A DNA stretch of 64,000 nucleotides, from IMG/VR virus record IMGVR_UViG_3300035698_018106, positions 102,717 through 166,716 of that record; one strand, given 5' to 3'. Source of the DNA: a virus. A model generated the notes under the pieces. That model had not been told where the DNA came from and searched no databases. It was given only the letters and a program-made list of their open reading frames with translations. A program made the translations under genes and the position numbers. Shown one piece after another: positions 1 through 18,270 of this stretch. The first letter of the stretch is position 1. Each line of letters begins with the position of its first letter.

Positions 1-1573
1 CTAAACTTGCATAACTAAAATCTAATCCAGCATGTTCTCTAGCTAATTGTTGAGTTATTTTTCTTCCAACATTATCATATCCAAGAATTTGAATGACTTT
101 CTCATATGGTATAGACTTAATATTTTTAAATGCATTAACAAATATTTCATTAAGTCTAGTTCCTGGTTCTAATCCAAATTCTCCTAATGATTCTCCACCA
201 TTTTCTAAAACAAATGCCCATAATTCATACATATTAGCAAAACGTTTAGCAAATGGCTTTAATCTTTCACCACCAACACCTTTAAGATCTAAAATACCAG
301 AGGCCGATGCTAATTTCTTAGAAATTCTACCAACACAATGTTCATTAGAACAAGATAAATGAATCTTATTGAATGTTAATTTAGTTCCACAATCAGGACA
401 ATTTGTTGGTAAATTTACTGGTTCTCCTGGTGTATAAATTACTTTTTGAATCTCAGGTATTATATCACCGGCTTTAGCTATTGAAACACTTGCCCCTATA
501 CATATACCATTATCAACCAAATATCCAGCATTATATCCAGACGCTCTTTTTACAATTGTTCCGGCTAATTCGACTGGATCCAAAAGAATAACTGGTGTAA
601 GTTCTCCACGTTTCGAAACATTCCATTCAATTCCAATAACAGTTGTTATGGCTCCTTCAGGAACAAATTTTATAGCAATTGCCCATTCAGGATCATGATC
701 ATTTTCTCCTAATATTTCTCTAACCGGAACTGGCATAGATATTACAACACCATCCAATTGAAATTTATAAGTTTCTCTTAATTTTTCAAATTTCTTAATA
801 ATATTAATATAATCTTCATGTTCAAAAATTATATCATGATTAGTAGTACAAAATGTATTATGATTAAAATGAGATGGATGAACTTGTTTTCCGTTAACTA
901 AAAAATGTAATGGAATAAGAGTAATATCGTCAATTTTTTCTTGGTCATAATCATCTTTTCCAATTACACCTGCCACAAAATTTCTAGCATTTGCATATTT
1001 TCCATCTTCTCGTTTACCAAAATATTTTTCTTTAAATAAAGAAAGTTTAATGACAGCTTCACATCTAATTTCAATTGTATCTTCTTCTTCAATATTTAAT
1101 CCTTGTATGACTAATTCTTCTTTTACTTTAGACCTTAGTCTAGTTGTTACATCTTTACCTTCTAAACCATCTCCTCTAGTAAGAATATTATTTAAAGTTG
1201 TACACTGATAAATAATATTAATTGCTGATCCATCAAATTTAGGTGATCCAGAAAGTCTAAAACCATTTCCAACAACATTTTGACATTTTCTAAGCCATTT
1301 TTTATATTCATCCTCTTGATAATTAATAACTTTATCAATTCGTTCTGTTTGAATTTTTGCTAATGAAAGCATTTTTGTTGGGTGAGCAAAATCAAAATCT
1401 TTTCTTTTAGAACCAACCTGTTCAATAACTTTAGAACCATTATTCTTAAGAATTTTCTCAAGTTCATCAAATTCAGCATCTGTCATTAGATCTTCAATAC
1501 GATCTTCATTACCTTCATAATAAGCAATTTTAGCTTTAAGATACTTATTTTCTAAAATTTGTTGATTATTCAT
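1..1573 (-). CDS. ligA: NAD+-dependent DNA ligase (LigA family), partial. The C-terminus runs off the window start. An in-frame TAA at 830-832 interrupts the reading frame.
   Basis: Minus strand starts at the ATG at 1573-1571. Translation shows the Ia-like N-terminus (MTDAEFDELEKIL), adenylation motif I (SPKFDGSAINIIY, KxDG), TRGDGLEGKDVT, EIRCEAV (motif III-like) and NARNFVAGV (NPRNAAAG-like). The TAA at 830-832 follows. The same frame then continues with FQLDGVVI (motif IV), AIAIKF (motif V), ITPVILLDPVELAG (OB domain), KAGDIIPEI, a CPDCG...CSNEHC Zn finger and the HhH motif LGYDNVGR. No ORF for this region was present in the supplied track. Confidence 0.7.
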   Translation of the reverse strand, partial: MNNQQILENKYLKAKIAYYEGNEDRIEDLMTDAEFDELEKILKNNGSKVIEQVGSKRKDFDFAHPTKMLSLAKIQTERIDKVINYQEDEYKKWLRKCQNVVGNGFRLSGSPKFDGSAINIIYQCTTLNNILTRGDGLEGKDVTTRLRSKVKEELVIQGLNIEEEDTIEIRCEAVIKLSLFKEKYFGKREDGKYANARNFVAGVIGKDDYDQEKIDDITLIPLHFLVNGKQVHPSHFNHNTFCTTNHDIIFEHEDYINIIKKFEKLRETYKFQLDGVVISMPVPVREILGENDHDPEWAIAIKFVPEGAITTVIGIEWNVSKRGELTPVILLDPVELAGTIVKRASGYNAGYLVDNGICIGASVSIAKAGDIIPEIQKVIYTPGEPVNLPTNCPDCGTKLTFNKIHLSCSNEHCVGRISKKLASASGILDLKGVGGERLKPFAKRFANMYELWAFVLENGGESLGEFGLEPGTRLNEIFVNAFKNIKSIPYEKVIQILGYDNVGRKITQQLAREHAGLDFSYASL

Positions 1574-2431: not shown

Positions 2432-2929
2432 TTATTTTGGGAAATTAATCTCTTTTGTTAATTCTGAGCTCATATCGCATAAATCATTGGCTCTAATTTC
2501 AAATGTGGCGTTTGGATATCCATATATAGGATCAATTTCTAATTCAATATGGATTTCATCTGGGATAATATCTGTAATTGGACATATGAATTCTTTTCCA
2601 GATTGTTCAAATATTACTATTCTATTAAGAATTTCTTCCCATTCTTTACAAGTTCCATTTGAATATTTAACTTTTACTCTAGTTTTAAATCTAGTATCAG
2701 AAAAAAATCTGAATACAAGTGGGAAATCTGTAAAGAATGCAGTTTTGTCACCTATTATAGATATAGAGAACCTAGCAGTTCTTTTATTTTTTACTTTTTT
2801 ATATCTAGGGGCAGTTATTTTAAATCTACATTTATTTACATCAGATTTATCATAAAGCTTTTGTATAAACAATAATAAGAAGATTGCAACAATAAGTAGT
2901 CCTAAAAAGATTCCAGCGTTTACTAACAT
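2432..2929 (-). CDS. hypothetical membrane-anchored protein
   Basis: 165-aa ORF with a hydrophobic N-terminal helix (AGIFLGLLIVAIFLLLFI). Confidence 0.45.
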   Translation of the reverse strand: MLVNAGIFLGLLIVAIFLLLFIQKLYDKSDVNKCRFKITAPRYKKVKNKRTARFSISIIGDKTAFFTDFPLVFRFFSDTRFKTRVKVKYSNGTCKEWEEILNRIVIFEQSGKEFICPITDIIPDEIHIELEIDPIYGYPNATFEIRANDLCDMSSELTKEINFPK

Positions 2930-2938
2930 AAAACGGAG

Positions 2939-3712
2939 TTATTTTTCTTCTAGGGCTTCAATTCGTTCCCTTAATATTAATATTTCATTCTTAAGATTAA
3001 TATCAGTAGACGAATCTTCTATTATGATATTATTAGCTTTTATATTTCCGTCCACATTTAATTTATATATCCCTGGAATATTTCCAATTCCAACGTTTCC
3101 TGTAGATGATATAAGAAATTTAAAATCTGAATAACTACCAGATGAAATTCCTAAAATTGGTCTATTAATAACACATCCATTATTAACATTTCTAGCATCT
3201 AATATTATTGCTGGAATATCAGTATTTTCCCCTTCTATAACTTTACCTATAAAATATAAGCCTGAGTCATCATCATCAGATCCAACACCTATAATTTGAG
3301 GTAAAAACCCACTATCTGTAGCATTTCCTATAGATATACCAAATATACCATCCCCTATATGAAGAGCAGTTGTTCTCGTGTTAACAGGGACACTGATATC
3401 AAATCTATAATCATGTAAAGGATATCTATTTAAACCAACTTGTCCGTCTCTAAAAAGGAACGGAGTGTCGTCTAGAGGATTTTGAATAGAACAATCAATT
3501 TGTATATCTCCTGTAGAACTATTAGATATAATTATATTAGAAGAACCTATTAAAGAGGTCCATCCAATATTGTCATTATGAGATAAAAATTTAACATCGT
3601 TTTCTTCATTAGAAAATAATGGAACCAATTCAACTATATTAAAATTATCACTTCCATCTTTAGTTATTTGGTTAAGAATTAAATTTTTATTATCTTTTTT
3701 ATTAAATGACAT
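2939..3712 (-). CDS. hypothetical protein with a Gly-rich beta-repeat region (GNVGIGNIPG) and a C-terminal coiled coil
   Basis: 257-aa ORF. Gly/Asn/Ser-rich with a GNVGIG motif reminiscent of phage fibre proteins. C-terminal heptad-like sequence LKNEILILRERIEALEEK. Confidence 0.4.
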   Translation of the reverse strand: MSFNKKDNKNLILNQITKDGSDNFNIVELVPLFSNEENDVKFLSHNDNIGWTSLIGSSNIIISNSSTGDIQIDCSIQNPLDDTPFLFRDGQVGLNRYPLHDYRFDISVPVNTRTTALHIGDGIFGISIGNATDSGFLPQIIGVGSDDDDSGLYFIGKVIEGENTDIPAIILDARNVNNGCVINRPILGISSGSYSDFKFLISSTGNVGIGNIPGIYKLNVDGNIKANNIIIEDSSTDINLKNEILILRERIEALEEK

Positions 3713-4510
3713 TTATTTTTTTGGATCGTCTTGTTTTTTATCAGAATTTTTAGATTCTAAAGGAGGTTTGCGCTTTTTCCATTCTTTTTTAAGTTCTCCT
3801 AAATATTTACAATTTTCATATTTTTCTTTATCTTTAAATGATTCTATCATTCGATCTATAACTTCATCGATATGTTTATTTTCTATAATTACAATGGTTT
3901 TAGTATCAGCAAAAATAACAAAAGGCTTATTTTCTTCAATTGGTTCCTTATCAAAATTTTCACGGACGTAATCATATATCTTCTGAGATAATTGTTCCCA
4001 ACCTCCATCTATATAAAAATTATCATTTTGTTCGGTTGGATTAAAACTTAATAAAACTCTCTTATCTTCAGTGTATCCCATAGTCGTTAAGAAAATCATA
4101 CTGGTAGGATTTATAGATTCAGATGCTTCAATATCCCGGGCATTTTCCTCAGCAATAATATGAGTTTTTTCATGGATAAATTCTCCCATTTGTTCTAACC
4201 ATTTAGGATAGGTTTTATATTGAATATCATCAGTTAGATTCCATGAAGGATCTATTTCAGAGTCATGTATTAATATTATATGTGAATAAACATCATAATC
4301 GACCATATCAGAACAAATTCTATTAAATTCAATATCGACTGGTTCTTCTATCTCACCCCATAAACACCAAGTATTAGGTACTTCTGGTAATCTAAACGAA
4401 GATACAAATTTATAATCTTTAAATGTCTTGGATAATTCATCGTCGGTATAAACTTTATCTTTAGGATACATCTCTTCCGCTATTCCATTACTATATATAA
4501 TTAGGCTCAC
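3713..4510 (-). CDS. hypothetical protein with a basic C-terminal tail
   Basis: 265-aa ORF abutting the upstream gene. No motif recognised. Confidence 0.45.
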   Translation of the reverse strand: MSLIIYSNGIAEEMYPKDKVYTDDELSKTFKDYKFVSSFRLPEVPNTWCLWGEIEEPVDIEFNRICSDMVDYDVYSHIILIHDSEIDPSWNLTDDIQYKTYPKWLEQMGEFIHEKTHIIAEENARDIEASESINPTSMIFLTTMGYTEDKRVLLSFNPTEQNDNFYIDGGWEQLSQKIYDYVRENFDKEPIEENKPFVIFADTKTIVIIENKHIDEVIDRMIESFKDKEKYENCKYLGELKKEWKKRKPPLESKNSDKKQDDPKK

Positions 4511-4575
4511 ATTAAAGTTTTTTATTTGAAAATATTTTATAATTATTATATGTATCTAAATCTAAAAAGTTTACT

Positions 4576-5619
4576 TTATTTGTTAAACCTTTTAAATGCT
4601 GCATTTGTGATATGTTCATAATCTACATATCCAATAAACTTATGAATTTTATCATATCCACAATAACTCATATTTGTCCGTAAATAATCTTCAAAATTCT
4701 CTATCCAAGATTCTAATGTATATTCTACTTTTTGTTTCTTTGTTATTCCTTCAGCTGTTTTAATTTTATCTTTACCCCATTTTCTTTGAACAGCTTTAGT
4801 ACTCATTCCTCTATATTCTTTTTTAATAGTAAATCCCTTTTTCCATAATCTATTCGCTAGTTTATATGGGATTTTAAAACCTAAAAAATAATTACTTCCA
4901 GAACTTTCGATAGCTTTATTAAAAATAGATCCTAACATTATATAATCAGCACCTAATCCTAATGCTTTTATGATATCATCATATCCTTGCATACCACCAT
5001 CAATAACTATTTTAGTATTCCAGAATCCTCCTTTTATCTTTTCTTCTCTACATTCTTTTATTAAAGATCCTATAGGATAATTAATTGCGGCATTTGCTGC
5101 AGTTGTACAAGCCCCACCAGTTCCTATAGAGCATCTTATATAATCTGCGCCGGCCATTGCTAAATTTTTATATGTTAAAGGGTGGGCAACATTACCAACC
5201 ATTAAAATGATAAAAGGGCGTAGTTTCTTAATAGCTTTTATAACATCTATTAATCTTTGCATATGACCATTAGCTATATCTATTAATATACGCGGGTAAT
5301 GTTGAATATATTTAGTATCATATATATCACCATTTGCTGCGCGCTCTAAATCTTTTTCTATTTCAACAAGTCCTAATGATTGAAAATATTTACCTTTATT
5401 TATAAGATGTTCATCTTCAAATCCTCTAGGTAAACAAGGCACTATTTTATTTTGTATATAATGTTCTAGATTTTTCTCTGAAATAACAGTATCCATTGGA
5501 GATGCCATTAATGGTAAAGTTCCATCTTGTTCTGTATCACATTCACTTCTACTATTAATTGGGCTAACAATAGCAGGAGTAATTACAATGTCTTTTAAAT
5601 CGAATTTAATATCTTTCAT
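4576..5619 (-). CDS. GMP reductase-like protein (IMPDH/GMPR TIM-barrel family)
   Basis: 347 aa, the same length as GuaC. Motifs: LPLMASPMDTV (compare IIAANMDTV), CSIGTGGACTTAANA (compare GIGPGSVCTT, catalytic Cys loop) and VIDGGMQGYDDIIKALGLGADYIMLGS (compare SDGG...GADFVMLGG). There is no CBS-domain insertion. Confidence 0.55.
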   Translation of the reverse strand: MKDIKFDLKDIVITPAIVSPINSRSECDTEQDGTLPLMASPMDTVISEKNLEHYIQNKIVPCLPRGFEDEHLINKGKYFQSLGLVEIEKDLERAANGDIYDTKYIQHYPRILIDIANGHMQRLIDVIKAIKKLRPFIILMVGNVAHPLTYKNLAMAGADYIRCSIGTGGACTTAANAAINYPIGSLIKECREEKIKGGFWNTKIVIDGGMQGYDDIIKALGLGADYIMLGSIFNKAIESSGSNYFLGFKIPYKLANRLWKKGFTIKKEYRGMSTKAVQRKWGKDKIKTAEGITKKQKVEYTLESWIENFEDYLRTNMSYCGYDKIHKFIGYVDYEHITNAAFKRFNK

Positions 5620-6447: not shown

Positions 6448-6481
6448 ACAAAGTAGTTTATTTTATATATCCAATAAAAAA

Positions 6482-6506
6482 AGCTCTGAGTTATCAGAGC
6501 TTTTTT
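6482..6506 (-). terminator. rho-independent terminator downstream of the RNR gene
   Basis: Stem AGCTCTGA / TCAGAGCT with loop GTTA. Flanked by an A-run on one side and a T-run on the other, so it could act bidirectionally. Confidence 0.6.
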
Positions 6507-6526: not shown

Positions 6527-9076
6527 TTAACCACACCTTGAAAAACTACAAGATGTACAATGAACACACCCTTCTTCTCTTATTAAATCAGCTTTACAAT
6601 CAGGACATTTCTCTTCTAATTTTACAGATTCTTCATATCTGCTCAAGTATCTCCTAACAACTGATGAAAAAGAAGTAATATTTTCATCTATTTTTTTAAT
6701 TACATTATTAACATGAGATATAGGGGCACCATGACGCAATAACATAGAGGCAGTTAACGTTAATATTTTAAACTCAATTCTATCTGCGGCTATTTGAAGT
6801 TCTTCTATTTCAAATTCACCATTAATAAACTTATAATGTCCTTTTTTAACTTTGATAATCTTACCTGTTGTGTTTTTAAGACTTGGAGGATTCTCAAACC
6901 CCATTATTTCATAAGGTCTATTAGTTCCAGGCCATTTACCTATAATAACAGCAAAATCTCTTCCATCTGCTTTAGCAGCATAATAATCTGCTTCTAATTC
7001 TTTAGGTCTTTTTGGTGCATTTGATTCTGGAAATTCTTCTATTTCATTTGTTTCTTCTTTTTTACTTAATATAACACCTGTTCTAGATCCTTCTCTATAA
7101 ATAGTGCAACCTTTGCATCCGGCTTTCCAAGCTTCAAAGTATATATCATTAACTTCTTTCTTAGTTGTTTGTGATGGTAAATTATGAGTTACTGAGATTG
7201 AATGGTCAATCCATTTCTGAATAACACCTTGCATTCTTACTTTTTCTAAATAATCAATTTCATGAGATTCAGATCCTGCCCAAGGAGATTCTTTTATAAT
7301 ATCATTTAAATTAGATTCAGATAAACCATTAAGATAAATATCAACATCAATTATTTCTTTTCCTTCTTTAGTAGTTTTATACCATTCTAAGAATGTAGTA
7401 TGTAAAACATTAAATTCTTCCCATGAATCACCATTTTCATCAACAAAATCAATTTTAACAGTAGGATCATTAGGATTAACTTTTTTCCTTCGTAATGATA
7501 TAATTTTAAATACAGGCTCTATACCTGAAGTGGTTTGAGATGCTATTGCTAATGTACCAGTTGGAGCAATAGATAATGAAGCGATATTTCTTCTACCATA
7601 TTTTATATAATCCTCATATTCTGCAGTACTAAAATTAGCAGAAATAATTCTATTAATGAATGGATTATTAGATTCTTTATCGTAATTCCATATAGGAAAT
7701 GCTCCTCTTTCTTTTGCTAATTGAACAGTTTCTTTATAACAACTAACAGCTAGATTTTTAAATATTTTATCGATGAATTTAGTAGATTCTTTAGATCCAT
7801 ATCGCATACCTAATTTAGCTAGCATATCACCTAGTCCTAATACACCAATACCGGTTCTTCTTCCATTTCTTAGCACAGTCAAAACATTATTCCATGTTTC
7901 CAACTCAACTCTTTTTAATAGTTTAGCTTCCGGATCTTTTTTAATTTTTGCTAAAATCTTCTCTATTTTTTCTTCTTCTAATGATACAATATCATCCATA
8001 GTACGTTGAGCAAATCTAGCAGTTTTTTCTAATTTAGCCCAATCTATTTTAGCATTTTTCTTAAATGGATTTTTAACATGATTTGATAAATTAAGTGATC
8101 CTAATCTACATGAATCGTAAGATGACAAAGGAACTTCGCCACATGGATTTGTTCCTTTAGTTTCGAATCCTAAATCTGCATAACAATCTGATGGAGATTC
8201 GGATATTATTGAATCCCAAAATAAAATGCCTGGTTCTGCATTTTTATGGGCCATTTCAATAGTTTTATCCCATAATTCTTTGGCTTTTATCCTTTTTATA
8301 TACATACCATTATCTAATTTATGAATAGCATCATATGGTGTTTGTATATCAATTTTAGGTTGTTTGTTTGTTGTTGGCCAATGTAGAATATAATCTTGAT
8401 CTTGTTCAACAGCTTTCATAAACTCATCAGTTACTTTAAGAGAAACATTAGCTCCAGTAACTTTAGATAAATCCGCCTTTTTAATAACAAATGTAGGGGA
8501 ATCTGGATGATTAACATGCATACTAATCATTAATGCTCCCCTCCTACCGTCTTGTGCAACTTCTCTAGTTGTGTTTGAATATCTATCCATAAATGAAGGA
8601 GCGCCGGTTGAAGATTGGGCTGAGTTATTAACATAACTGCCTATAGGTCGAAGATTTTCTATAGTAATACCAACACCTCCTCTTCTTTTCATTAATTGTG
8701 CAATTATTTCATCAATATTAATAATTGCGCCATAAGAATCAGAGTTATTATCTATAAAAAAACAATTTCCAAGAGATGACATTTGGTAATTATTTCCTAA
8801 CCCAAATAATATAGACCCTCCATAAATGAAATTTCCAAATCCTTTTAAATTATCATATATCTCTTCTTTATTAAGAGGGTGTGGATATTCTTGTTCTTTC
8901 CTAAAAATCTCATTTGTTATTCTATTAATAGTATTATCAGGCATTAATTCTATAAACTTTCCTTTTTCTTTAAGTGCATACTTATTAATCCAAACTTGTG
9001 TTGCTAAATTATCACCCTTAAAATAAGGTAAAGTAGCATCATTAAGTTGATCAATTGTATAGGTTTCATTAGTCAT
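6527..9076 (-). CDS. nrdJ: ribonucleotide reductase, class II (adenosylcobalamin-dependent, monomeric NrdJ-like) with a C-terminal Zn ribbon
   Basis: 849 aa. Active-site motif TNPCGEVPLSSYDSCRLGSLNL (the class II NPCGE...CxLGSxNL pattern). Glycine-rich GGVGI segment. C-terminal CPDCKADLIREEGCVHCTSCSFSRCG. Confidence 0.8.
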   Translation of the reverse strand: MTNETYTIDQLNDATLPYFKGDNLATQVWINKYALKEKGKFIELMPDNTINRITNEIFRKEQEYPHPLNKEEIYDNLKGFGNFIYGGSILFGLGNNYQMSSLGNCFFIDNNSDSYGAIINIDEIIAQLMKRRGGVGITIENLRPIGSYVNNSAQSSTGAPSFMDRYSNTTREVAQDGRRGALMISMHVNHPDSPTFVIKKADLSKVTGANVSLKVTDEFMKAVEQDQDYILHWPTTNKQPKIDIQTPYDAIHKLDNGMYIKRIKAKELWDKTIEMAHKNAEPGILFWDSIISESPSDCYADLGFETKGTNPCGEVPLSSYDSCRLGSLNLSNHVKNPFKKNAKIDWAKLEKTARFAQRTMDDIVSLEEEKIEKILAKIKKDPEAKLLKRVELETWNNVLTVLRNGRRTGIGVLGLGDMLAKLGMRYGSKESTKFIDKIFKNLAVSCYKETVQLAKERGAFPIWNYDKESNNPFINRIISANFSTAEYEDYIKYGRRNIASLSIAPTGTLAIASQTTSGIEPVFKIISLRRKKVNPNDPTVKIDFVDENGDSWEEFNVLHTTFLEWYKTTKEGKEIIDVDIYLNGLSESNLNDIIKESPWAGSESHEIDYLEKVRMQGVIQKWIDHSISVTHNLPSQTTKKEVNDIYFEAWKAGCKGCTIYREGSRTGVILSKKEETNEIEEFPESNAPKRPKELEADYYAAKADGRDFAVIIGKWPGTNRPYEIMGFENPPSLKNTTGKIIKVKKGHYKFINGEFEIEELQIAADRIEFKILTLTASMLLRHGAPISHVNNVIKKIDENITSFSSVVRRYLSRYEESVKLEEKCPDCKADLIREEGCVHCTSCSFSRCG

Positions 9077-9118
9077 ATTAACATATTTATTTTAATTCAT
9101 TATTTTTAAGCTGTATTA

Positions 9119-10555
9119 TTAAATAGTAGCTTTTAATCTTCGTTCTTTAATTTTTTGCAATTCATCCATCTCAATATCTGCTCTTTGAGATGTCTTTTTA
9201 GCCACTTTTCGTTGAGCATAAAAGTTAGCTAATATTTCTGGTATTAATGGTTCAAATGACGCGTCAAAAACAGCTCCAGATGAACATTTTATTTGATTAT
9301 CATTAGTTTTATAAAGTTTATCTTTGGTTATAAAATTCTCTATAGATATCATAAATTGTCTCATGATAGAAGGATAAAGAGATGCAAAGTCAAAAGAAGC
9401 TACCCAACCATATAAACCAGGTACAGGCTCAAATACAAAAGCTCCTTCGAATTGTTCTCTTTGTTTCTTATCCCATATTTTCGGAAATACTTGTTTCCTT
9501 TTATATGCATATCTAGATAAAGTGGCTTCCAACATTTGTATAGGAGAAAATGCATTCATAGCTTCAACCTGAGTAATATTTCCAAGTCCTAAGAAGGTAC
9601 TCATGGTTTTCAACTTTTCGTCCATTAATTCAACAAGAACAGAATCAATAGCATTATAGAAAACATATAATTCATAATCTTTATTAAACAATTCTTGAAA
9701 TGTTCCACCATATTTAACTTTTCTAATTCCGGTAGCTGCTTCAGCCACAAAATCTAATGTATTATTTTCCTTTACATCAATTGTTCTATCCCATTTCATA
9801 TAAATGGACATATAATCAACAATTAATTTATGTTGAGGAAGCATGATAGTCTTTGTTTTACCTCTGTCTTTTATTCTGTGTTCATACCATTGTCCGGTGG
9901 GTGACATCCAAGATATATCCATTCCTAATCTTTTTGTACATCTATTATAAATATACAACCAATCATATCCCCAAAAATTCCACCCTGTTATAAGAGGTGC
10001 TGTTCTAGCATAATTATATAACCAATCATATAACATATCAGCTTCATTATCATATTGTTTATAAACAAATTTATATTGTCTATCGTATTTGTCAATATGT
10101 TTATTAATGCTTTTTTCTATTCTATCGCATTCTTCACCCGATAAAGGTTTTAAACCAAATACTATGATATCCGGATATCTAACCCATGATATTGAATTAA
10201 TTCTATTTTTTGCCTCATCAGCTCCTGGAAATCCTTCATCAGTAACATCTACTTCAATATCACAAGCATATAATTTAGGGAGATTACGTTCGAATAAATG
10301 TTTTGTGTTAGCTTCGCCTGCATCCATAAAAAATTCTTGAATTCTGTGTTTATCAAGAAATTGTGATGGTCTTTTTGAAACTGGTTTATTGTCCCATGAT
10401 TTAATACCAGGAACAGCTTTACTTTGTTGATTAGTATATGAATAAGAATATTGGTGGTTTGAGGGTATAGCTAATTGAGAAAAAGCTACTTCACCTTCTT
10501 TATTAATGTATGAGACGACCATACGTCCTTGTCTTTGTTCTATATTTATTACCAT
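9119..10555 (-). CDS. DNA polymerase, family B, T4 gp43-like: N-terminal fragment (3'-5' exonuclease domain through polymerase motif A) only
   Basis: 478 aa, collinear with T4 gp43 residues ~100-470. Matches: LYACDIEV (Exo I; T4 VANCDIEV), ITGWNFWGYDWLYIYNR (T4 FTGWNIEGFDVPYIMNR), FYNAIDSVLV (Exo II; T4 YNIIDVESV), FEGAFVFEP (T4 FPGAFVFEP) and SFDFASLYPSIMRQ (motif A; T4 SFDLTSLYPSIIRQ). The ORF stops before the KxxxNSxYG and YGDTDS motifs. The RNR start codon lies 42 nt downstream. Confidence 0.8.
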   Translation of the reverse strand: MVINIEQRQGRMVVSYINKEGEVAFSQLAIPSNHQYSYSYTNQQSKAVPGIKSWDNKPVSKRPSQFLDKHRIQEFFMDAGEANTKHLFERNLPKLYACDIEVDVTDEGFPGADEAKNRINSISWVRYPDIIVFGLKPLSGEECDRIEKSINKHIDKYDRQYKFVYKQYDNEADMLYDWLYNYARTAPLITGWNFWGYDWLYIYNRCTKRLGMDISWMSPTGQWYEHRIKDRGKTKTIMLPQHKLIVDYMSIYMKWDRTIDVKENNTLDFVAEAATGIRKVKYGGTFQELFNKDYELYVFYNAIDSVLVELMDEKLKTMSTFLGLGNITQVEAMNAFSPIQMLEATLSRYAYKRKQVFPKIWDKKQREQFEGAFVFEPVPGLYGWVASFDFASLYPSIMRQFMISIENFITKDKLYKTNDNQIKCSSGAVFDASFEPLIPEILANFYAQRKVAKKTSQRADIEMDELQKIKERRLKATI

Positions 10556-10640
10556 GTATCTTGTTTAAATATTATATTCTGATTTTGGAATAAAGTTTAC
10601 CTAATATATGTTAAAGATTATTAACGCTTTTCTGATAACA

Positions 10641-10678
10641 AAGGTTTAGTGATATATATCACTAAACCTTTTATTTAT
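10641..10678 (-). terminator. 30-bp perfect palindrome (hairpin) followed by a T-rich tract. It lies between the DUF4406 gene and the polymerase gene.
   Basis: AAGGTTTAGTGATATATATCACTAAACCTT at 10641-10670, followed by TTATTTAT. It could be a terminator or a regulatory RNA hairpin upstream of the polymerase. Confidence 0.4.
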
Positions 10679-10697
10679 AATAATCTCATTATTAATA

Positions 10698-11084
10698 TTA
10701 TAAGTCTATCAAAGCCTGATAACCATTGCATTTAAAATGATCATTTAGATCTTCTATTGAATGAAAAATAGGTATACTATGTTCTCTTGCAACTGCTTCT
10801 TCTCGATCTGCTCCTGAACTAGGTATTTCTTTTCCTTTTTCATCTACTGGATGAATTCGTAACAAAGCATTACATGTTTTCACAAAACAAAAATCTAATG
10901 TTAATAATTCTTCTTCAGAAATAGTAGGATCAAATATAGATTGGAAATGAGATAATAAAGGGGTGTATGGAAAATATCCTAACTTCATTAGTTTTGAAGC
11001 TGTTTGAATTTGAATATTAACCATATGTGGTATCCATCCTTTAGTATATGGACTAGCTATATAAACCTTTATTTCTTTTTTCAT
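10698..11084 (-). CDS. DUF4406 / nucleoside 2-deoxyribosyltransferase-fold protein (Rcl/DNPH1-like)
   Basis: 128 aa. N-terminal KVYIASPYTKG resembles the KIYIAGPMTG signature. The C-terminal ...GADREEAVAREHSIPIF resembles the conserved ...G..IE...A...G.PV end of the family. Confidence 0.45.
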   Translation of the reverse strand: MKKEIKVYIASPYTKGWIPHMVNIQIQTASKLMKLGYFPYTPLLSHFQSIFDPTISEEELLTLDFCFVKTCNALLRIHPVDEKGKEIPSSGADREEAVAREHSIPIFHSIEDLNDHFKCNGYQALIDL

Positions 11085-11317
11085 GAATTTAATTTTCCGT
11101 GTTCTTTCTTTATATCGTTAGCTGTTTTAATAGATATAATATCTAAGTCTGTTAATGTTGATATTGCTAACATATAAGCACCATCATTAGTTATTTCGCT
11201 TTGATTGGTTTTATAATTTAAAACAGTATCAACCATATGTTGTAAAGCATTACTAGAAATACTATCTTTTTCATGAGTTTGTTCTAATTCTGCTAATTTT
11301 TTAAAATTCAGTTTCAT
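11081..11317 (-). CDS. hypothetical protein
   Basis: 78-aa ORF overlapping the downstream gene by 4 nt (translational coupling pattern). Confidence 0.4.
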   Translation of the reverse strand: MKLNFKKLAELEQTHEKDSISSNALQHMVDTVLNYKTNQSEITNDGAYMLAISTLTDLDIISIKTANDIKKEHGKLNS

Positions 11318-11325
11318 ATCTTGTA

Positions 11326-12015
11326 TTATTTGTTATTTGTACTTCCAAAACCACCTTCGCCTCTATCATCTTGTAAACCTTTAAAGAAGGTTTTCTCAGC
11401 TTGGGGTTTATCTTTAATATCGAATATTTCAACAGGAGAAGTAAAAACTGGAGTTTCTATAAATTGGATAATTTTCATATTCTCATAAATGCGAACATTT
11501 TTAGTAGATGTATTAATAACACTTATATGAATTTCTCCTTTATATGTATAATCGACTACTGCCGCTCCGAAAATTAATCCTAATTTTGTTGCAACACCTG
11601 ATTTATTATTTACAATTAAAGCTCTCCCAGGGGAAGCCATTCTAGATTTTATACCTCCTGGAATCATAGCTCTACTATGTGGTGCTAATAGAAAATAATT
11701 TTCTCCTTTTTCATCATCGTATTTTATAATAGAATCATTATCATCATTTAAATCATAAACAATAGAAGCTCTTGTATCATTGGGATTTGATAATGTTCCG
11801 GATGCTATACACACTCTTGCATTTATTTCTAAATAATCAGGATTAACACATTCCCCAAAAATCAAAGGATTTATTTCTTTAATGTCTTTAATAAATTTTT
11901 TATCAAATTTAGGTACAAAAAAATCTATTCCGGCATCATATTCAAATGCTCTCTTTGGTGATATAACATCTCTTATTTTTAAGAACTTAATTGTTTCGTT
12001 AATTGGTTTACTCAT
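11326..12015 (-). CDS. dut: dUTP diphosphatase (trimeric dUTPase)
   Basis: 229 aa. Motif 3-like GAAVVDYTYKGEI and C-terminal motif 5 RGEGGFGSTN (the RGxxGFGSTG pattern). Confidence 0.75.
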   Translation of the reverse strand: MSKPINETIKFLKIRDVISPKRAFEYDAGIDFFVPKFDKKFIKDIKEINPLIFGECVNPDYLEINARVCIASGTLSNPNDTRASIVYDLNDDNDSIIKYDDEKGENYFLLAPHSRAMIPGGIKSRMASPGRALIVNNKSGVATKLGLIFGAAVVDYTYKGEIHISVINTSTKNVRIYENMKIIQFIETPVFTSPVEIFDIKDKPQAEKTFFKGLQDDRGEGGFGSTNNK

Positions 12016-12080: not shown

Positions 12081-13040
12081 TTATTTATCATGTTTTAAAT
12101 AAGGAGTAATAGAATTGGAAATTAAACGAGTTTTATATGATTCAGTTACATTTTCTTTAGAAGTTAAAGTGGCTCTAGGAAGTTGTTTTCCTTCAGCATA
12201 TATAGTTAATATCTGATCTCCTTTAGAATATTTTCTTATAGTATTGTCTGGATTTTTACCATATTTTTCCCAACCACTTTTTTCTATTTTTTCTAATACA
12301 TTTGGAATAGTATCTGTTATAAATACTCTATCAATTCCTGATTTTCCTGGTTTAAATTCATATGATATACCTAAACCATCTAGGGCATCTTTAGCTTTTA
12401 CATCTTTTAATGCTATATCATCTCTTAAAGACGTTTCATTAACTGTATCAGATTTCTTCTTTTTTATTGAAGTTAATGGGTGATCAGGTACGTGTTTAGA
12501 TGCCTTTTGGTAATCATCTAGAGTTTCTATATTAAATGATTCATTTTTATTTTTGAAATCTTGTAATATCGTATTTGTTTTAGAATCCTTTTTCTTGAAT
12601 GGAGGTTTTACACCCATTTTTTTAGCCATCATATTTCCGATTTTATCATATGGATTTATATTATTTTCGTTAGTTTGTGTTCCTATAGAAGCATCACTCC
12701 AACTATCTCCTGAACCAGAAGGTCCATCTGTATTTAATCCAGCTGATGCAGCAGGTACTGCACTTCCCATTCCTGGTGTATTAACAGTAGTTGCCATTGG
12801 AGCAGATACGCCACCAACATCTTCATTCACAGTCCCCATCAATTCATCATCAGATAAATTTATTAATAATCCATCCCATTTTTTTATAGCCATTTCTTTT
12901 GTTTTAGAAGGAGGCCCTTCTGCATGACATATTGAACATGTTATTGCATAACTAGCTTTTTCACCACTTGGCATTTCAGCATCTTTTCCTAGAGAAAATA
13001 CCCAAGTTTCATTTGAATTACAAAAAGGACATTGTTTCAT
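12081..13040 (-). CDS. Lar-like (restriction-alleviation family) Zn-ribbon domain protein with a disordered linker and a C-terminal domain of unknown function
   Basis: 319 aa. N-terminal MKQCPFCNS...CSICHAEGP...EMAIKKWDGL matches the CPFCG...C..C...GP....A...WN pattern of the Lar family. The Gly/Ser/Thr-rich segment is low-complexity. Confidence 0.5.
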   Translation of the reverse strand: MKQCPFCNSNETWVFSLGKDAEMPSGEKASYAITCSICHAEGPPSKTKEMAIKKWDGLLINLSDDELMGTVNEDVGGVSAPMATTVNTPGMGSAVPAASAGLNTDGPSGSGDSWSDASIGTQTNENNINPYDKIGNMMAKKMGVKPPFKKKDSKTNTILQDFKNKNESFNIETLDDYQKASKHVPDHPLTSIKKKKSDTVNETSLRDDIALKDVKAKDALDGLGISYEFKPGKSGIDRVFITDTIPNVLEKIEKSGWEKYGKNPDNTIRKYSKGDQILTIYAEGKQLPRATLTSKENVTESYKTRLISNSITPYLKHDK

Positions 13041-13043
13041 AAA

Positions 13044-13583
13044 TTATTCTATTAATTTTGTTAAAACACCTGATATTTTAGATGCCAAATTTATTGTTTT
13101 TTTATTATCATCATAAAAATATATAGTATCATATTGTTGTGATAATTCTATTAATTCTTTTTCTTTCTCTATAGAAACATCAGTAACTTTATCTTTAATA
13201 CCAACAGTTATAATATTATTCATTGGAATATTAACATTATTTCGTTTAATAAAGGTATAAATAGCCATTTGTGCTTCTTTATTTCTTCCTGTTAGTATAT
13301 ATATTTCTGCATCAGTTCTTATAGATTTCTTATCCATATCTATTTTTTTAAGAAGTGGCCACATTTTATATTTATCTGCTTTTAAAGTAATCCGTGGATC
13401 ATCAAAATCGCTAGTGTCTATAATTTCTCCATCGCTTAGTTCAAATTTATTAAATTCGTCTGGAGTTAAAGATTTAATTTTCTTATTATTTTTATATATA
13501 TGGATTTTCGCTTTAGATTTAACTAATGTTTCATCAAAATCAAATATATAAGCTATTGTCTGAGGTACTATTCTTGCTCGCAT
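13044..13583 (-). CDS. HAD-superfamily phosphatase
   Basis: 179 aa. N-terminal IFDFDETLV is the HAD motif I (DxDxT). Confidence 0.55.
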   Translation of the reverse strand: MRARIVPQTIAYIFDFDETLVKSKAKIHIYKNNKKIKSLTPDEFNKFELSDGEIIDTSDFDDPRITLKADKYKMWPLLKKIDMDKKSIRTDAEIYILTGRNKEAQMAIYTFIKRNNVNIPMNNIITVGIKDKVTDVSIEKEKELIELSQQYDTIYFYDDNKKTINLASKISGVLTKLIE

Positions 13584-13618
13584 AAAAATTAATTATATAA
13601 TTTATTTATTCATAAAAA

Positions 13619-13643
13619 AGGAGACCCTGAGATCTCCTTTTTA
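13619..13643 (-). terminator. rho-independent terminator downstream of the acidic-repeat gene
   Basis: AGGAGA-CCCTGAGA-TCTCCT hairpin with an A-run on one side and a TTTTT run on the other. Confidence 0.5.
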
Positions 13644-13665
13644 TATTATGTAAGTGTTTTTATTT

Positions 13666-15201
13666 TTATGCGAAAGGATTCACGCCTTTTTTGCCTGGTT
13701 CTGGTTTTGAATCTTTATCATCAGAATCTTTATCCTCATCGTCATCATCAGAATCTTTATCGTCATCATCAGAATCTTTATCGTCATCATCAGAATCTAT
13801 ACCAGGTTCGTTTGATTCTTCGCCAGTATCTTCTAAACCAGCAAAATCAATTGTATCTTCTACTCCTTCAGCGCCTTCTACTTCAATTTCTCCACCAAAC
13901 ATGTCTTCAATATCAACACCTTTACCTTCTAACCAACTTTTAAGTACTTCCCAATTTTCAGCATTAACTTTTATTTGTTTACCATCTGCGATTGGCTCTT
14001 CATCATCTATTGCAATATCTTCTCCTTCTCCTTCTCCTTTAGCAGGAACTTCATCTATAACTTCTTCTTCACCTGGTATTTCAGTAGATACTTCTTCATC
14101 ATCTTCCCCAAATGTTTCTAAATCACCCATACTAAATTCATCATCTTCATCATCTTCAGTAAGATTAGGTATCATAGCTTTTTCTTCTTTTTCCATACCT
14201 GTAACAGATTCTTCAATTTCTGGAAGGTCACTTGTTTCGCTAGCATCTTCAGTTTCGCCATCAATGCCCCCATCAAGATTTAAATCAAAATCATCTATAT
14301 CATCTCCACCTTCTTCTCCATCAATAGGTGCTAAAACATCAAGTCCTCCACCTTCTTCGCCATCAATAGGTGCTAAATCATCTGATTGATCTATTACTTC
14401 TTCAGCTTCAACACCTAATTCAGTTAATTCACTTATAGCTTCCTCTATATCATCAACAGTTATAATAAATTCGGTTATCTCCACTCTATCATCCGAATCT
14501 GCATCCGTATCTAGATCAGTATCTAGATCTTTATCATCATCGTCATCAGAATCTTTATCATCGTCATCAGAATCTTTATCATCGTCGTCAGAATCTTTAT
14601 CATCGTCATCAGTATCTACATCAGTATCTACATCAGTATCTACATCAGTATCTACATCAGTATCTACATCAGAATCTTTATCATCGTCATCTTTATCTTC
14701 TTCATTTAGCTTAGTTAAACGTTTAGCTTTTATTTGTTCAACTAAAGCTCTGATACGAGCTTCTCTTTGCTCTTCTTCATTAAGTTGACTTTCTGATTTT
14801 TCCTTTTTTTGTATTACGGATTTAACTTCTTTTTCTTCATGAAGTTTTCCTTCTTCAATTCTAGCAGTTCTTTCTAATAATCGTTGTCCTAATTTAGATA
14901 ATTTATAAGACACTAAACCATTTTTATTTTCAACCATAAAGAAATTAGCATTTCTTTTTAGCCACATGTTAGCTGCAGCATTAGGATTTTTAGAAGTTTC
15001 ATTTAAACCAGCTATAAATCTCTTAAGACTACCTCTTGTAACTTTTTTACTTTCAGATACAAAGTTTAAAACTTGATCTCTTAAAGGAGCTCTAGATCCA
15101 ACAACTACAGGTTGTTTATTCCCATATTTTCTTGTTAAAGTAATAGCTTTATTCTCGTTAAGATACTGACCTAAACTTGTCTGTACATACATTTTTTTCA
15201 T
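13666..15201 (-). CDS. hyper-acidic tandem-repeat protein. It has an N-terminal basic domain followed by ~370 aa of D/E-rich repeats (DTDV x5, DDDDKDS x7).
   Basis: 511 aa. The N-terminal ~140 aa are basic (K/R-rich). The remainder is dominated by Asp/Glu, with repeat blocks at both ends encoded by exact DNA tandem repeats. Confidence 0.6.
   Translation of the reverse strand: MKKMYVQTSLGQYLNENKAITLTRKYGNKQPVVVGSRAPLRDQVLNFVSESKKVTRGSLKRFIAGLNETSKNPNAAANMWLKRNANFFMVENKNGLVSYKLSKLGQRLLERTARIEEGKLHEEKEVKSVIQKKEKSESQLNEEEQREARIRALVEQIKAKRLTKLNEEDKDDDDKDSDVDTDVDTDVDTDVDTDVDTDDDDKDSDDDDKDSDDDDKDSDDDDDKDLDTDLDTDADSDDRVEITEFIITVDDIEEAISELTELGVEAEEVIDQSDDLAPIDGEEGGGLDVLAPIDGEEGGDDIDDFDLNLDGGIDGETEDASETSDLPEIEESVTGMEKEEKAMIPNLTEDDEDDEFSMGDLETFGEDDEEVSTEIPGEEEVIDEVPAKGEGEGEDIAIDDEEPIADGKQIKVNAENWEVLKSWLEGKGVDIEDMFGGEIEVEGAEGVEDTIDFAGLEDTGEESNEPGIDSDDDDKDSDDDDKDSDDDDEDKDSDDKDSKPEPGKKGVNPFA
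13739..13801. repeat. 21-bp tandem repeat x3 (unit cgtcatcatcagaatctttat) inside the acidic-protein CDS
   Basis: Direct reading. Encodes DKDSDDD repeats. Confidence 0.8.
14531..14607. repeat. 21-bp tandem repeat x~3.5 (unit catcgtcatcagaatctttat). A second array of the same family lies in the same CDS.
   Basis: Direct reading. Confidence 0.8.
14611..14670. repeat. 12-bp perfect tandem repeat x5 (agtatctacatc) encoding (DTDV)5
   Basis: Direct reading. Confidence 0.9.
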
Positions 15202-15281
15202 ATTGTTAACATTAATTTTATAATTTAATTTATATATTCATTTAAGTATTAATACTTTTGATAGTAAAGTGTAACATTGAT

Positions 15282-16349
15282 TTAACTTGATGCGATTGAA
15301 TTACTTGGCCATGATTCTTCCATATCATCTTCAATAAACTCATTATAATTTAATTTATCAATAATTTCTACCTTATTATAAGTCTTTCCTAAAAATTTAA
15401 TGATATCCATTTCATCATATTCAGGATCATATGAAATTTTCTCAAATGTATCAGAATTTCCTTTTTTTACATGACCAAACCATTCACCATCAGGAGATAC
15501 TTTATAAATTTTTCCTATAAAATTATTTTTACCATCATCTATCTTTACATAAAAAACATAATCATTTTCTATATAATTGTTCTCATCTCTTTTTTCTTGA
15601 CCAACTAATTCAACATATGCTTCAGATAAATCATAAAAACTATCTGTTGCCATAGGATTAGTAACATCTATATTAATTTTTTCGTTTTTAGCTTCTTGAA
15701 TTCTTTTACATATAGAAGTTAGCTCTTCTTTAGATCCATTAATTTTCAAATAAGCATACTCATCATATAGTTCTTCTAATAAACTTGGATTATTATCTGA
15801 TATTAAAATTGATTCATTTGGAGGGGGTATAACAGAAGATTGGTCAGTTCCAGGTTGTGGTTGCGTTTTGGCTTGTTGAGCTAATGTTTCAGCCTCTTTT
15901 TGTTGTTGAGCTACTCCTGCTTTTTGTTCTATTTCTGCCATAGCTTTCTGAATAGGAATTTTAGCATTTTGTATATCGGCAACTTGTTTTTGTAAAGCAT
16001 TTATTTGCGTATCTTTATCAAGAAGTTGTTTTTGCCCACTAGCGTATTGTTGCATTAAAGCTGGATCTGTTATGGCTACATCTTCATTTATTTTTTTCAT
16101 ATCGTTTAATTCTTTTAATTCTTTTAATAGTTCTTGGAGTTGGTCTTGGTCTCTCCAATCATGACCCTTTCTATTATCATGATTAAAGTCTTTAATTAAT
16201 TGATCAGCCTTAGATGAATCAATTTTAATTTCCTCTAAACCATCCGGACCTGATATATCATACTTTTTATAATAATGGTCAGCAAAAGACGTCAATTGAT
16301 CAGGATTTAAGTCATTTTTATGTGCTAAATCTATTATTTTTATTTTCAT
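15282..16349 (-). CDS. hypothetical protein with a central Gln-rich coiled coil
   Basis: 355-aa ORF, 1 nt from the downstream gene. No motif recognised. Confidence 0.45.
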   Translation of the reverse strand: MKIKIIDLAHKNDLNPDQLTSFADHYYKKYDISGPDGLEEIKIDSSKADQLIKDFNHDNRKGHDWRDQDQLQELLKELKELNDMKKINEDVAITDPALMQQYASGQKQLLDKDTQINALQKQVADIQNAKIPIQKAMAEIEQKAGVAQQQKEAETLAQQAKTQPQPGTDQSSVIPPPNESILISDNNPSLLEELYDEYAYLKINGSKEELTSICKRIQEAKNEKINIDVTNPMATDSFYDLSEAYVELVGQEKRDENNYIENDYVFYVKIDDGKNNFIGKIYKVSPDGEWFGHVKKGNSDTFEKISYDPEYDEMDIIKFLGKTYNKVEIIDKLNYNEFIEDDMEESWPSNSIASS

Positions 16350-16350
16350 A

Positions 16351-18186: not shown

Positions 18187-18227
18187 GTTTTTATAATATT
18201 TGTTTATTTTATTTATTCAATAAAAAA

Positions 18228-18258
18228 GGGAGACTATTAATAGTCTCCCTTTATTTTT
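18228..18258 (-). terminator. rho-independent terminator
   Basis: Stem GGGAGACTA / TAGTCTCCC with loop TTAA, followed by TTTATTTTT and preceded by AAAAAA. Confidence 0.65.
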
Positions 18259-18270
18259 ATAATGATACGC

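What the first reader, a model, noticed from the sequence alone, without database searches (positions are those of the whole stretch)
9119..10555. T4 gp43-type DNA polymerase present only as an N-terminal (exonuclease to motif A) fragment, followed directly by nrdJ; the polymerase-domain half is not in this 64-kb window
The 478-aa ORF is collinear with T4 gp43 through Exo I, II and III and polymerase motif A (SFDFASLYPSIMRQ). It stops where T4 continues into the KxxxNSxYG and YGDTDS motifs. The next gene 42 nt downstream is the RNR. No ORF in the window carries the missing palm, fingers or thumb motifs. Split gp43 (43A/43B) is known in some Aeromonas T4-like phages, but there the halves are adjacent. 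A distant second half, or loss of it, would be unusual.
Basis: partly seen in the sequence, partly recalled or inferred. Interest (0 to 1): 0.6.

Follow-up and report, generated by a model that had tools for sequence, protein, structure and literature searches.

The report
Split phage DNA polymerase, halves unlinked
This huge-phage fragment encodes only the front half of its T4-type DNA polymerase; in every related phage checked the back half is a separate gene tens of kilobases downstream, so this is a two-subunit polymerase with unlinked genes rather than a broken or lost gene.

Summary
ORF 9119-10555 (-) is a 478-aa family-B polymerase N-half with intact Exo I-III, motif A and the first finger helix. 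It ends in TAATAA, 42 nt before an intact nrdJ. No motif B, motif C or thumb sequence occurs anywhere in the 64 kb (regex, tblastn, profile HMM).

The stop falls in the "fingertip", the site where T4-like phages split gp43 into 43A and 43B. It is not an artefact: the best 120 database homologues (63-82% identity) are all 476-493 aa, apart from one 393-aa fragment.

The partner exists in relatives. Six contigs of this clade, representing five phages, carry both a 64-73%-identical N-half and a stand-alone 389-395-aa C-half. The C-half is always on the same strand, 20.4-52.1 kb downstream. In all six the gene after the N-half is a ribonucleotide reductase. The window has only 9.1 kb downstream, so its C-half probably lies about 11-43 kb beyond the left edge.

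There is no intein, intron or homing endonuclease at this break. Other huge phages (Lak and the LR7565xx genomes) place the halves 10-281 kb apart, some on opposite strands.

Verdict: a real two-subunit polymerase of known split type, with unusually unlinked genes. Interest is modest.

The parts
9119..10555 (-). PolB N-half ('43A-like' subunit), 478 aa. It carries the N-terminal domain, the 3'-5' exonuclease (Exo I-III), palm motif A and the first finger helix, and ends at the fingertip.
   Evidence: The last residue aligns to about T4 gp43 residue 520, compared with 514 for ZZ1 43A, 506 for PAU gp105 and 502 for LR756500. The best 120 homologues are 476-493 aa, apart from one 393-aa fragment.
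9077..9118 (-). 42-nt spacer between the double stop (TAATAA) of the N-half and the nrdJ start. It contains no intein, intron or endonuclease gene.
   Evidence: sequence; no Rfam family reaches its gathering score anywhere in the window; no Hint or intein domain in the N-half.
6527..9076 (-). nrdJ, the class II adenosylcobalamin-dependent ribonucleotide reductase. Here it is intact and intein-free, and it is the conserved immediate downstream neighbour of the N-half.
   Evidence: TIGR02504, 482 bits against a cut-off of 399.95; Ribonuc_red_lgC. Synteny appears.
6477..6506 (-). Terminator-like hairpin (GCTCTGA..TCAGAGC followed by T7 on the minus strand) just after nrdJ. It suggests that the N-half and nrdJ form one transcription unit.
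   Evidence: This is a consensus match only, so co-transcription is inferred.
10640..10671 (-). 14-bp palindromic hairpin between the upstream 128-aa gene and the N-half start. It may mark the end of the preceding transcription unit.
   Evidence: Inferred.
10698..11084 (-). 128-aa DUF7768-like gene, a conserved upstream neighbour of the N-half.
   Evidence: below the Pfam cut-off: 23.3 against 26 bits. Synteny appears.
11326..12015 (-). dUTPase, a conserved upstream neighbour that is also upstream of the N-half in LR756500.
2..1573 (-). NAD-dependent DNA ligase gene running off the left edge of the window. The missing C-half is predicted to lie in this direction, about 11-43 kb beyond position 1.
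   Evidence: A walk from the ligase in relatives adds 10 kb with no C-half.

Best explanation
The ORF is the large N-terminal subunit of a two-subunit, T4 gp43-type family-B replicative DNA polymerase. The polymerase is split at the tip of the fingers domain. This is the same site as the 43A/43B split of some T4-like phages, but here the two genes are unlinked.

The N-half supplies the complete 3'-5' exonuclease site, palm motif A with its catalytic Asp (DFASLYPS), and the first finger helix. A separately transcribed and translated C-half of about 390 aa supplies the second finger helix with motif B (KxxLNSxYG), motif C (YxDTDS), KKKY and the thumb. The C-half gene is predicted to lie about 20-52 kb downstream on the same strand, outside this window.

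The two polypeptides are inferred to associate non-covalently. The two finger helices would pack antiparallel, and the palm sheet would be completed from both chains, so the polymerase active site is composite and neither half can polymerise alone. No protein or RNA splicing is involved at this break.

Shown: the anatomy of the N-half, the absence of a C-half in the window, conservation of the break, and the presence and position of the C-half in relatives. Inferred: that this genome also has the C-half, and that the halves assemble into an active enzyme.
For: 1. Break position. It lies at T4 residue about 520, between the finger helices, next to the breaks of ZZ1 43A/43B (514), PAU gp105/gp110 (506) and LR756500 (502).

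2. Complementarity. On Pfam DNA_pol_B the N-half covers model positions 17-143 and the clade's C-half (L305) covers 152-413 of 453.

3. Intact active-site residues in both halves.

4. Conservation of the break. There are 948 N-half homologues at E<=1e-30, and the best 120 are all 476-493 aa apart from one 393-aa fragment. There are 648 C-half homologues, and the best 120 are 386-402 aa apart from two of about 547 aa that carry an intein.

5. Same-contig pairs in this clade. The C-half is always on the same strand and downstream:
- Ga0490011_000015, 62.9 kb, N-half 73% identical to the window's, gap 34,460 nt.
- SRR21398031_651, 132 kb, gap 52,110 nt.
- Ga0364484_10294, 43 kb, gap 20,425 nt.
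- Ga0393272_0000058, 58 kb, gap 26,689 nt.
- IMG/VR 3300003860_000004 (111 kb) and 3300027899_000001 (405 kb), independent assemblies from different samples, both with a gap of about 48 kb.

6. No Hint or intein domain in either half and no Rfam intron in the window.

7. Published precedent. Natural fingertip-split gp43 enzymes exist, and Pfu polymerase split at the fingertip and reconstituted from separately expressed fragments is fully active (PMC3061061).
Against: The C-half of this very genome was not observed, because the window's source is not in the look-up collections and the closest N-half homologue is only 82% identical. Gene order around the C-half is not fixed in the wider group, so the predicted position is only a range. 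Assembly and activity of the two subunits are untested for any member of this clade. Only the N-half stop was examined, and read-level support could not be checked.
Confidence: 0.85

Rival explanations
1. The premature end is an artefact. Either a sequencing or assembly error created the stop, or a misjoin placed nrdJ after a truncated polymerase gene.
For: Only a single window is available and the reads could not be inspected.
Against: The stop is a double TAATAA. The same end, within about 10 residues, occurs in the best 120 homologues from many independent assemblies. The N-half to nrdJ junction recurs in at least 14 IMG/VR loci and in JGI and Logan contigs. The 405-kb and 111-kb contigs from different samples show the identical arrangement.
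Confidence: 0.02
2. The polymerase half has been lost. The N-half would then persist as a stand-alone 3'-5' exonuclease or proofreader, or as a decaying pseudogene, and replication would rely on another polymerase.
For: No C-half and no other DNA polymerase is visible in the 64 kb. The exonuclease site lies entirely within the N-half.
Against: Motif A and the nucleotide-binding finger helix are conserved, although a pure exonuclease would not need them. N-halves keep their full length at 63-82% identity, which indicates purifying selection.
Confidence: 0.05
3. The halves are joined after translation or transcription, by a split intein (as in 'fractured genes' or Nanoarchaeum PolB), by trans-spliced introns, or by stop-codon recoding or read-through.
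For: Relatives use such devices elsewhere. In LR756500 and Lak-A2 the C-half is interrupted at motif C by intein-like N- and C-terminal fragments (assigned by eye from the sequence, with no Hint-domain scan), and in LR756500 an endonuclease-like gene lies between them. The nrdJ of L014 and L021 carries an intein. Lak phages have an in-frame TAG inside the N-half.
Against: At this particular break the N-half ends flush with T4-like 43A subunits, without the extra roughly 100 aa that an intein N-fragment would add. Pfam finds no Hint or Intein_splicing domain in the N-half or in the clade's C-half. The stop is TAA TAA rather than TAG, and nrdJ is what follows. No intron family is detected in the window.
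Confidence: 0.03

Closest known systems
Bicistronic (split) gp43 of T4-like phages: 43A/43B of Aeromonas phages 25, 31, 44RR and 65, and of Acinetobacter phages 133 and ZZ1 (Petrov et al. 2006, 2010, as summarised in PMC3061061)
   Same: The break is at the same place, the hypervariable fingertip between the two finger helices. The domain content of each half is the same, the halves are translated separately, and no intein is involved.
   Different: In the T4-like phages the two genes are 2 bp to 3 kb apart (PMC3061061); ZZ1 is 1.9 kb and PAU 2.4 kb. In this clade they are 20-52 kb apart, with nrdJ and dozens of other genes between them. In other huge phages the distance reaches 281 kb, with the halves on opposite strands. 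Sequence identity to T4-like 43A is only about 29-31%.
Methanothermobacter thermautotrophicus two-subunit PolB (Kelman et al. 1999, via PMC3061061)
   Same: It is a family-B polymerase encoded by two unlinked genes (85 kb apart) whose products associate non-covalently.
   Different: Its split lies in the palm, about 83 residues C-terminal to the fingertip site. It is archaeal and not a gp43-type enzyme.
Engineered fingertip-split Pfu polymerase (PMC3061061)
   Same: The split is at or near the fingertip. Separately expressed N- and C-fragments reconstitute wild-type activity, and the C-fragment needs the N-fragment in order to fold.
   Different: It is artificial and bicistronic, derived from an archaeal enzyme, and its fingertip is short.
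Split-intein 'fractured genes' (Dassa et al. 2009, PMC2677866), and Nanoarchaeum equitans PolB (from my own knowledge)
   Same: An essential replication gene is encoded in separate pieces. This architecture is present in relatives at a different site, motif C of the C-half in LR756500 and Lak-A2.
   Different: Those pieces carry intein halves and are ligated by trans-splicing. The break studied here has no intein.
Huge-phage genomes in GenBank: Prevotella Lak megaphages and LR745206, LR756500-LR756504
   Same: These are the closest sequenced relatives of the N-half (30-39% identity). The N-half ORFs inspected in Lak-B2 and LR756500 end at the same point, and all of these genomes encode the C-half at a separate locus.
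   Different: The records are unannotated. The halves are 10 kb apart (LR756500) to 281 kb apart (LR756504), and on opposite strands in Lak-A2, LR745206, LR756501 (LR756503 gave identical coordinates), LR756502 and LR756504. In Lak-B2 a piece of the C-half lies 7 kb upstream of the N-half.

Membership tests
T4 gp43-type family-B DNA polymerase | Exo I, II and III motifs and polymerase motif A, collinear with gp43 | tested here: met
   RB69 E 8e-34, T4 E 4e-30; Pfam; motif-by-motif alignment
T4 gp43-type family-B DNA polymerase | Motif B (KxxxNSxYG), motif C (YGDTDS), KKRY and the thumb in the same polypeptide | tested here: not met
   These are absent from the ORF and from the whole window. 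In relatives they sit in a separate ORF.
Split gp43 (43A/43B two-subunit polymerase) | Break located in the fingertip between the two finger helices | tested here: met
   the N-half ends at about T4 residue 520, and known 43A subunits end at 506-514.
Split gp43 (43A/43B two-subunit polymerase) | A partner 43B gene in the same genome | not testable with these tools
   The window ends 9.1 kb downstream and its source genome is not retrievable. The feature is met in six contigs of the same clade.
Split gp43 (43A/43B two-subunit polymerase) | Bicistronic arrangement, with halves adjacent (2 bp to 3 kb apart) | tested here: not met
   There is no C-half within 9.1 kb downstream or 53 kb upstream in the window. 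In relatives the distance is 20-52 kb.
Split gp43 (43A/43B two-subunit polymerase) | Non-covalent assembly of the two products into an active polymerase | not testable with these tools
   This needs biochemistry or a multimer structure prediction. The precedent is in PMC3061061.
Split-intein 'fractured gene' | Intein N- and C-fragments flanking the break, often with a free-standing homing endonuclease gene between them | tested here: not met
   There is no Hint or Intein_splicing hit in the N-half or in the clade's C-half. The termini are flush with 43A and 43B. The 42-nt spacer holds no gene.
Methanothermobacter-type split PolB | Break within the palm, after motif B and before motif C | tested here: not met
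   The break precedes motif B.
Class II ribonucleotide reductase NrdJ (the neighbouring gene) | Score above the curated cut-off of the NrdJ equivalog model | tested here: met
   TIGR02504 scores 482.1 bits against 399.95.

The most novel reading that the evidence does not exclude
Unlinking the two polymerase genes may be functional rather than neutral drift. The N-half appears to share a transcription unit with nrdJ, while the C-half sits in a distant PhoH, topoisomerase, UvsX and DnaB cluster. If the halves are regulated separately, assembly of the active replicase could be gated in timing or stoichiometry, for example by tying it to dNTP supply. Alternatively the free N-half might act on its own as an exonuclease. 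The open fingertip could also relax nucleotide selectivity, as it does in split Pfu, which might help incorporate modified bases. That the arrangement persists across hundreds of huge-phage lineages would then reflect selection.
Probability: 0.1. Interest if true: 0.6.

Novelty: new variant of a known kind. Interest (0 to 1): 0.35.

Why it matters
The result matters in four ways.

1. Annotation. About 480-aa and about 390-aa 'DNA polymerase' fragments in huge-phage and metagenomic contigs are two subunits of one enzyme. They should not be scored as truncated, pseudogenised or incomplete, and polymerase-based phylogenies and completeness checks need both pieces.

2. Enzyme modularity. The fingertip of family-B polymerases tolerates complete genetic unlinking, with 20-52 kb between the genes in this clade and up to 281 kb on opposite strands in other huge phages. 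This extends the 2 bp to 3 kb range known from T4-like phages.

3. Evolution. The series runs from T4-like phages (about 2 kb) to a sister clade in which RNR genes lie between the halves (4-7 kb), then LR756500 (10 kb), then this clade (20-52 kb), then Lak and the LR7565xx genomes (100-281 kb). A ribonucleotide reductase gene follows the N-half in three of these clades. This suggests the gap grew by cargo insertion at a junction visited by homing endonucleases.

4. Mechanism. Nothing mechanistically new is demonstrated.

Tried and rejected
- Recoded stop or read-through. Rejected: the stop is TAATAA and nrdJ follows. The Lak in-frame TAG is internal to the N-half, not at the break.

- The 'LTDTDS' match at 48069 (+). 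This was the only DTDS-like hit. It lies near the N-terminus of a 473-aa ORF with no Pfam hit and no motif B, and the C-half HMM does not match it, so it is a chance match.

- The slot between the UvsW-like helicase (19311-20843) and the primase-like gene (22298-23419). More distant phages (L092-L104) keep the C-half there. The window has only five small ORFs in that slot.

- Exact-protein look-up of window genes to extend the contig. Nothing is on record.

- Walking 10 kb past the ligase in relatives. No C-half was found.

- First IMG/VR searches for the clade's C-half. The alignment of seven sequences (A1) was too diverse to give a search pattern. The A2 search and the degenerate 'DTELH' DNA pattern returned other clades only. 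The L197-type family and alignment A3 finally hit the right contig.

- Promoter scan. Matches were below the shuffled expectation and so uninformative.

- Structure prediction.

- Literature. I found no paper describing distant PolB halves in huge phages. This is absence within the searchable library only.

Full report
**1. The observation**

The minus-strand ORF at 9119-10555 is real. It is 478 aa and runs from ATG to a double stop, TAATAA. The next gene starts at 9076, which leaves a 42-nt spacer.

The protein aligns to RB69 gp43 residues 107-433 (E 8e-34) and to T4 gp43 residues 99-499 (E 4e-30). Pfam finds DNA_pol_B_exo1 and DNA_pol_B, the latter covering only model positions 17-143 of 453. 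A MAFFT alignment with T4 gp43 shows that Exo I (CDIE), Exo II (GYD), Exo III (YNAID), motif A (DFASLYPS) and the first finger helix (QRKVAKK) are all intact.

The downstream gene is nrdJ by the curated NCBIfam equivalog: TIGR02504 scores 482 bits against a cut-off of 399.95.

The window is about 28% G+C. Its large ORFs include a T4-like replication set, with a UvsW-type helicase and a gp32-like protein, and no other DNA polymerase.

**2. The second half is not in the window**

- A six-frame motif search gave only a chance 'LTDTDS' in an unrelated ORF.
- tblastn with the ZZ1 43B, PAU gp110 and LR756504 C-halves gave no hit better than E 0.18.
- A profile HMM built from about 80 stand-alone C-halves, run against all stop-to-stop segments of at least 30 aa, gave a best E of 0.13.

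The left edge of the window lies inside an NAD-dependent ligase gene. Only 9.1 kb of sequence lies downstream of the N-half.

**3. Where the break is**

In the alignment with T4 gp43 the N-half ends at about T4 residue 520. The known split polymerases end nearby: ZZ1 43A at 514, PAU gp105 at 506 and LR756500 at 502. All of these fall between the first finger helix and the helix that carries motif B, that is, in the 'fingertip'.

The literature describes this same site as the natural split point of gp43 in some T4-like phages, where the two genes are 2 bp to 3 kb apart. It also reports that Pfu polymerase split there and reconstituted from separately made fragments is fully active (PMC3061061, citing Petrov 2006 and 2010 and Kelman 1999).

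I confirmed the adjacent arrangement in three phages. In ZZ1 the genes are 1.9 kb apart. In PAU they are 2.4 kb apart. In Providencia phage PSTCR6 two ORFs annotated as DNA polymerase lie about 2 kb apart.

**4. The break is conserved, so it is not an artefact**

The closest genomes in the phage collection are huge phages: the Prevotella Lak megaphages (39% identity), LR756500 (37%), LR745206 and LR756501-LR756504. The N-half ORFs I inspected, in Lak-B2 and LR756500, stop at the same place.

In the 5.8-billion-protein collection the N-half has 948 homologues at E<=1e-30. The best 120 (63-82% identity) are all 476-493 aa, apart from one 393-aa fragment.

IMG/VR loci at 60-78% identity share the synteny dUTPase, DUF7768-like gene, N-half, nrdJ, WYL_2 protein, GMP-reductase-like gene and onward to the ligase.

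**5. The partner exists, and it is far away**

The C-half family of this clade was found stepwise. A representative from locus L305 is 389 aa. It carries KIWLNSVYG (motif B), YMDTDS (motif C) and KKKY. It covers Pfam DNA_pol_B positions 152-413, which is the exact complement of the N-half's 17-143.

It has 648 homologues at E<=1e-30. The best 120 are 386-402 aa, except two of about 547 aa that carry an intein.

Six contigs, representing five phages, carry both halves. In all of them the C-half is on the same strand as the N-half and downstream of it.

| Contig | Length | N-half identity to window | Gap between halves |
|---|---|---|---|
| IMG/VR 3300003860_000004 | 111 kb | 64% | about 48.0 kb |
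| IMG/VR 3300027899_000001 (independent assembly, same phage) | 405 kb | 64% | about 48.0 kb |
| JGI Ga0490011_000015 | 62.9 kb | 73% | 34,460 nt |
| Logan SRR21398031_651 | 132 kb | 68% | 52,110 nt |
| JGI Ga0364484_10294 | 43 kb | 68% | 20,425 nt |
| JGI Ga0393272_0000058 | 58 kb | 67% | 26,689 nt |

In all six contigs the gene after the N-half is a ribonucleotide reductase (for the 405-kb contig, by its locus L020 matching L014).

Relatives extended 10 kb beyond the ligase show no C-half within about 20 kb of the N-half, which is consistent with these distances. By extrapolation, the window's own C-half should lie roughly 11-43 kb beyond its left edge. That is an inference, because the source genome could not be retrieved.

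**6. The wider pattern**

The N-to-C distance forms a series across groups:

- T4-like phages: about 2 kb.
- A sister clade (33 IMG/VR loci): 4.0-7.3 kb. In the three loci inspected the gap holds ORFs that look like the class I RNR small and large subunits, plus a protein of about 250 aa. The RNR assignment rests on a 23% tblastn match to nrdJ and on reading the sequence; it was not scanned against Pfam.
- LR756500: about 10 kb.
- This clade: 20-52 kb.
- LR745206: 101 kb. LR756502: 132 kb. Lak-A2: 221 kb. LR756504: 281 kb. In these, and in LR756501, the halves are on opposite strands.

A ribonucleotide reductase gene follows the N-half in three of these clades. Endonuclease-like ORFs sit at that junction in some members: a GIY-YIG-like ORF in L008 and L009 and a 647-aa ORF in LR756500. 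This fits growth of the gap by insertion at a junction visited by homing endonucleases, but that scenario remains an inference.

**7. Mechanism**

The N-half holds the entire exonuclease site and one catalytic Asp of the palm (motif A). The C-half holds motif B, the motif C aspartates and the thumb. The polymerase site is therefore composite. The enzyme must form by non-covalent association of the two chains, as in 43A/43B and in split Pfu.

Splicing is disfavoured at this break for four reasons:

- Neither half has a Hint or intein domain.
- The termini are flush with those of 43A and 43B.
- The window has no Rfam intron hit.
- The stop is TAA TAA.

A terminator-like hairpin follows nrdJ on the coding strand, and none lies in the 42-nt spacer. 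The N-half and nrdJ are therefore probably co-transcribed, although this rests on a consensus match only.

**8. Verdict**

The kind is known: a fingertip-split gp43-type polymerase. What is new is the degree of unlinking and how widespread it is among huge phages. I found no description of this in the searchable literature.

It matters mainly for annotation, phylogeny and completeness calls, and as an illustration of polymerase modularity. No new mechanism is shown. I rate interest at 0.35 and confidence in the main explanation at 0.85.

Noticed in passing
L007 (LR756500.1 236000-266000), locus 12784-27904, minus strand: The PolB of LR756500 appears to be in three pieces. The order is N-half, a 647-aa endonuclease-like ORF, nrdJ, six genes, a middle piece (motif B and motif C followed by an intein-N-like fragment), a 567-aa endonuclease-like ORF, and a last piece (an intein-C-like fragment ending VHN|S, then the thumb). 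The nrdJ gene itself looks split by an intein-like element, with a 376-aa ORF in between. This is the 'fractured gene' architecture of PMC2677866. I assigned the intein fragments by eye from the sequence and ran no Hint-domain scan.
   Followed up: partly
L023 (Lak-A2 342556-350614), 2911-5059; L307 and L308: The Lak-A2 C-half also appears interrupted at motif C (GDTD|S) by intein-like N- and C-terminal fragments on two ORFs 344 nt apart. Some members of the window's own C-half family (L307, L308, P0155, P0164) carry an intein at the same site.
   Followed up: partly
L001 (Lak-B2) 298-1074 and 8001-9491; L242: In Lak-B-type genomes the post-motif-C piece of the C-half lies about 7 kb upstream of the N-half on the same strand, a permuted order. 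In Lak-A2 the C-half is 221 kb away on the other strand. The Lak-B2 N-half has one in-frame TAG, consistent with TAG recoding, and ends in TAA at the fingertip.
   Followed up: partly
L021 11328-14984; L014 11507-14974; L332 11513-14977: The nrdJ of several close relatives carries an HNH-type intein of about 300 aa inserted at ...GTNPC|...|CGEVPL. The window's nrdJ (849 aa) is intein-free.
   Followed up: partly
L008 5226-5855 (and L009): A 210-aa GIY-YIG-like ORF with repeated KGKKHSEETKKKIS motifs sits exactly between the N-half and nrdJ in the relatives that are 76-77% identical to the window. The window has only 42 nt at that position.
   Followed up: partly
window 13666-15201 (-): A 511-aa ORF has an ordinary N-terminal domain followed by extremely acidic low-complexity repeats (DTDV x5 and DDDDKDSDD repeated). 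It has no Pfam hit, but its N-terminal part is conserved in relatives.
   Followed up: no
window 46000-46700: Coding strand and GC skew switch here. Genes from 1 to about 46.5 kb are on the minus strand and genes from 46.6 to 59.3 kb are on the plus strand. This divergent junction sits beside an S1-domain protein at 46642-47850.
   Followed up: no
window, 33 largest genes: Stop codon usage is TAA 31, TGA 2 and TAG 0. No in-frame TAG is needed to keep the ORFs open, so there is no evidence of recoding, but the absence of TAG stops is notable given the recoded Lak relatives.
   Followed up: partly
window 16351-18186 (-) and 25452-27317 (-): Two large ORFs of 611 and 621 aa sit in the replication module. 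The second matches DUF6267 strongly (E 2e-67) and the first has no Pfam hit. Homologues of the first flank the polymerase C-half in distant phages (L092-L104).
   Followed up: no
L018 (IMGVR_UViG_3300009711_000055) 3572-4984 (-) and 10001-11413 (+): This 17-kb contig holds two inverted copies of the N-half with identical scores. It is probably a fold-back assembly artefact.
   Followed up: no
L092-L104, L116-L176 (IMG/VR): In a more distant group of phages the stand-alone C-half sits between homologues of the window's UvsW-like helicase and its primase-like gene. The window has five small ORFs (20821-22292) in that slot.
   Followed up: partly
L335 / L334 (Ga0490011_000015 49292-62932): The C-half neighbourhood in a 73%-identical relative contains a PhoH-like ATPase, a topoisomerase IV-like protein, a NUMOD3 endonuclease, NUDIX, a RecA/UvsX homologue with a weak intein hit, DUF7487 and a DnaB_C helicase. 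This looks like a second replication and recombination module, distinct from the one in the window.
   Followed up: no
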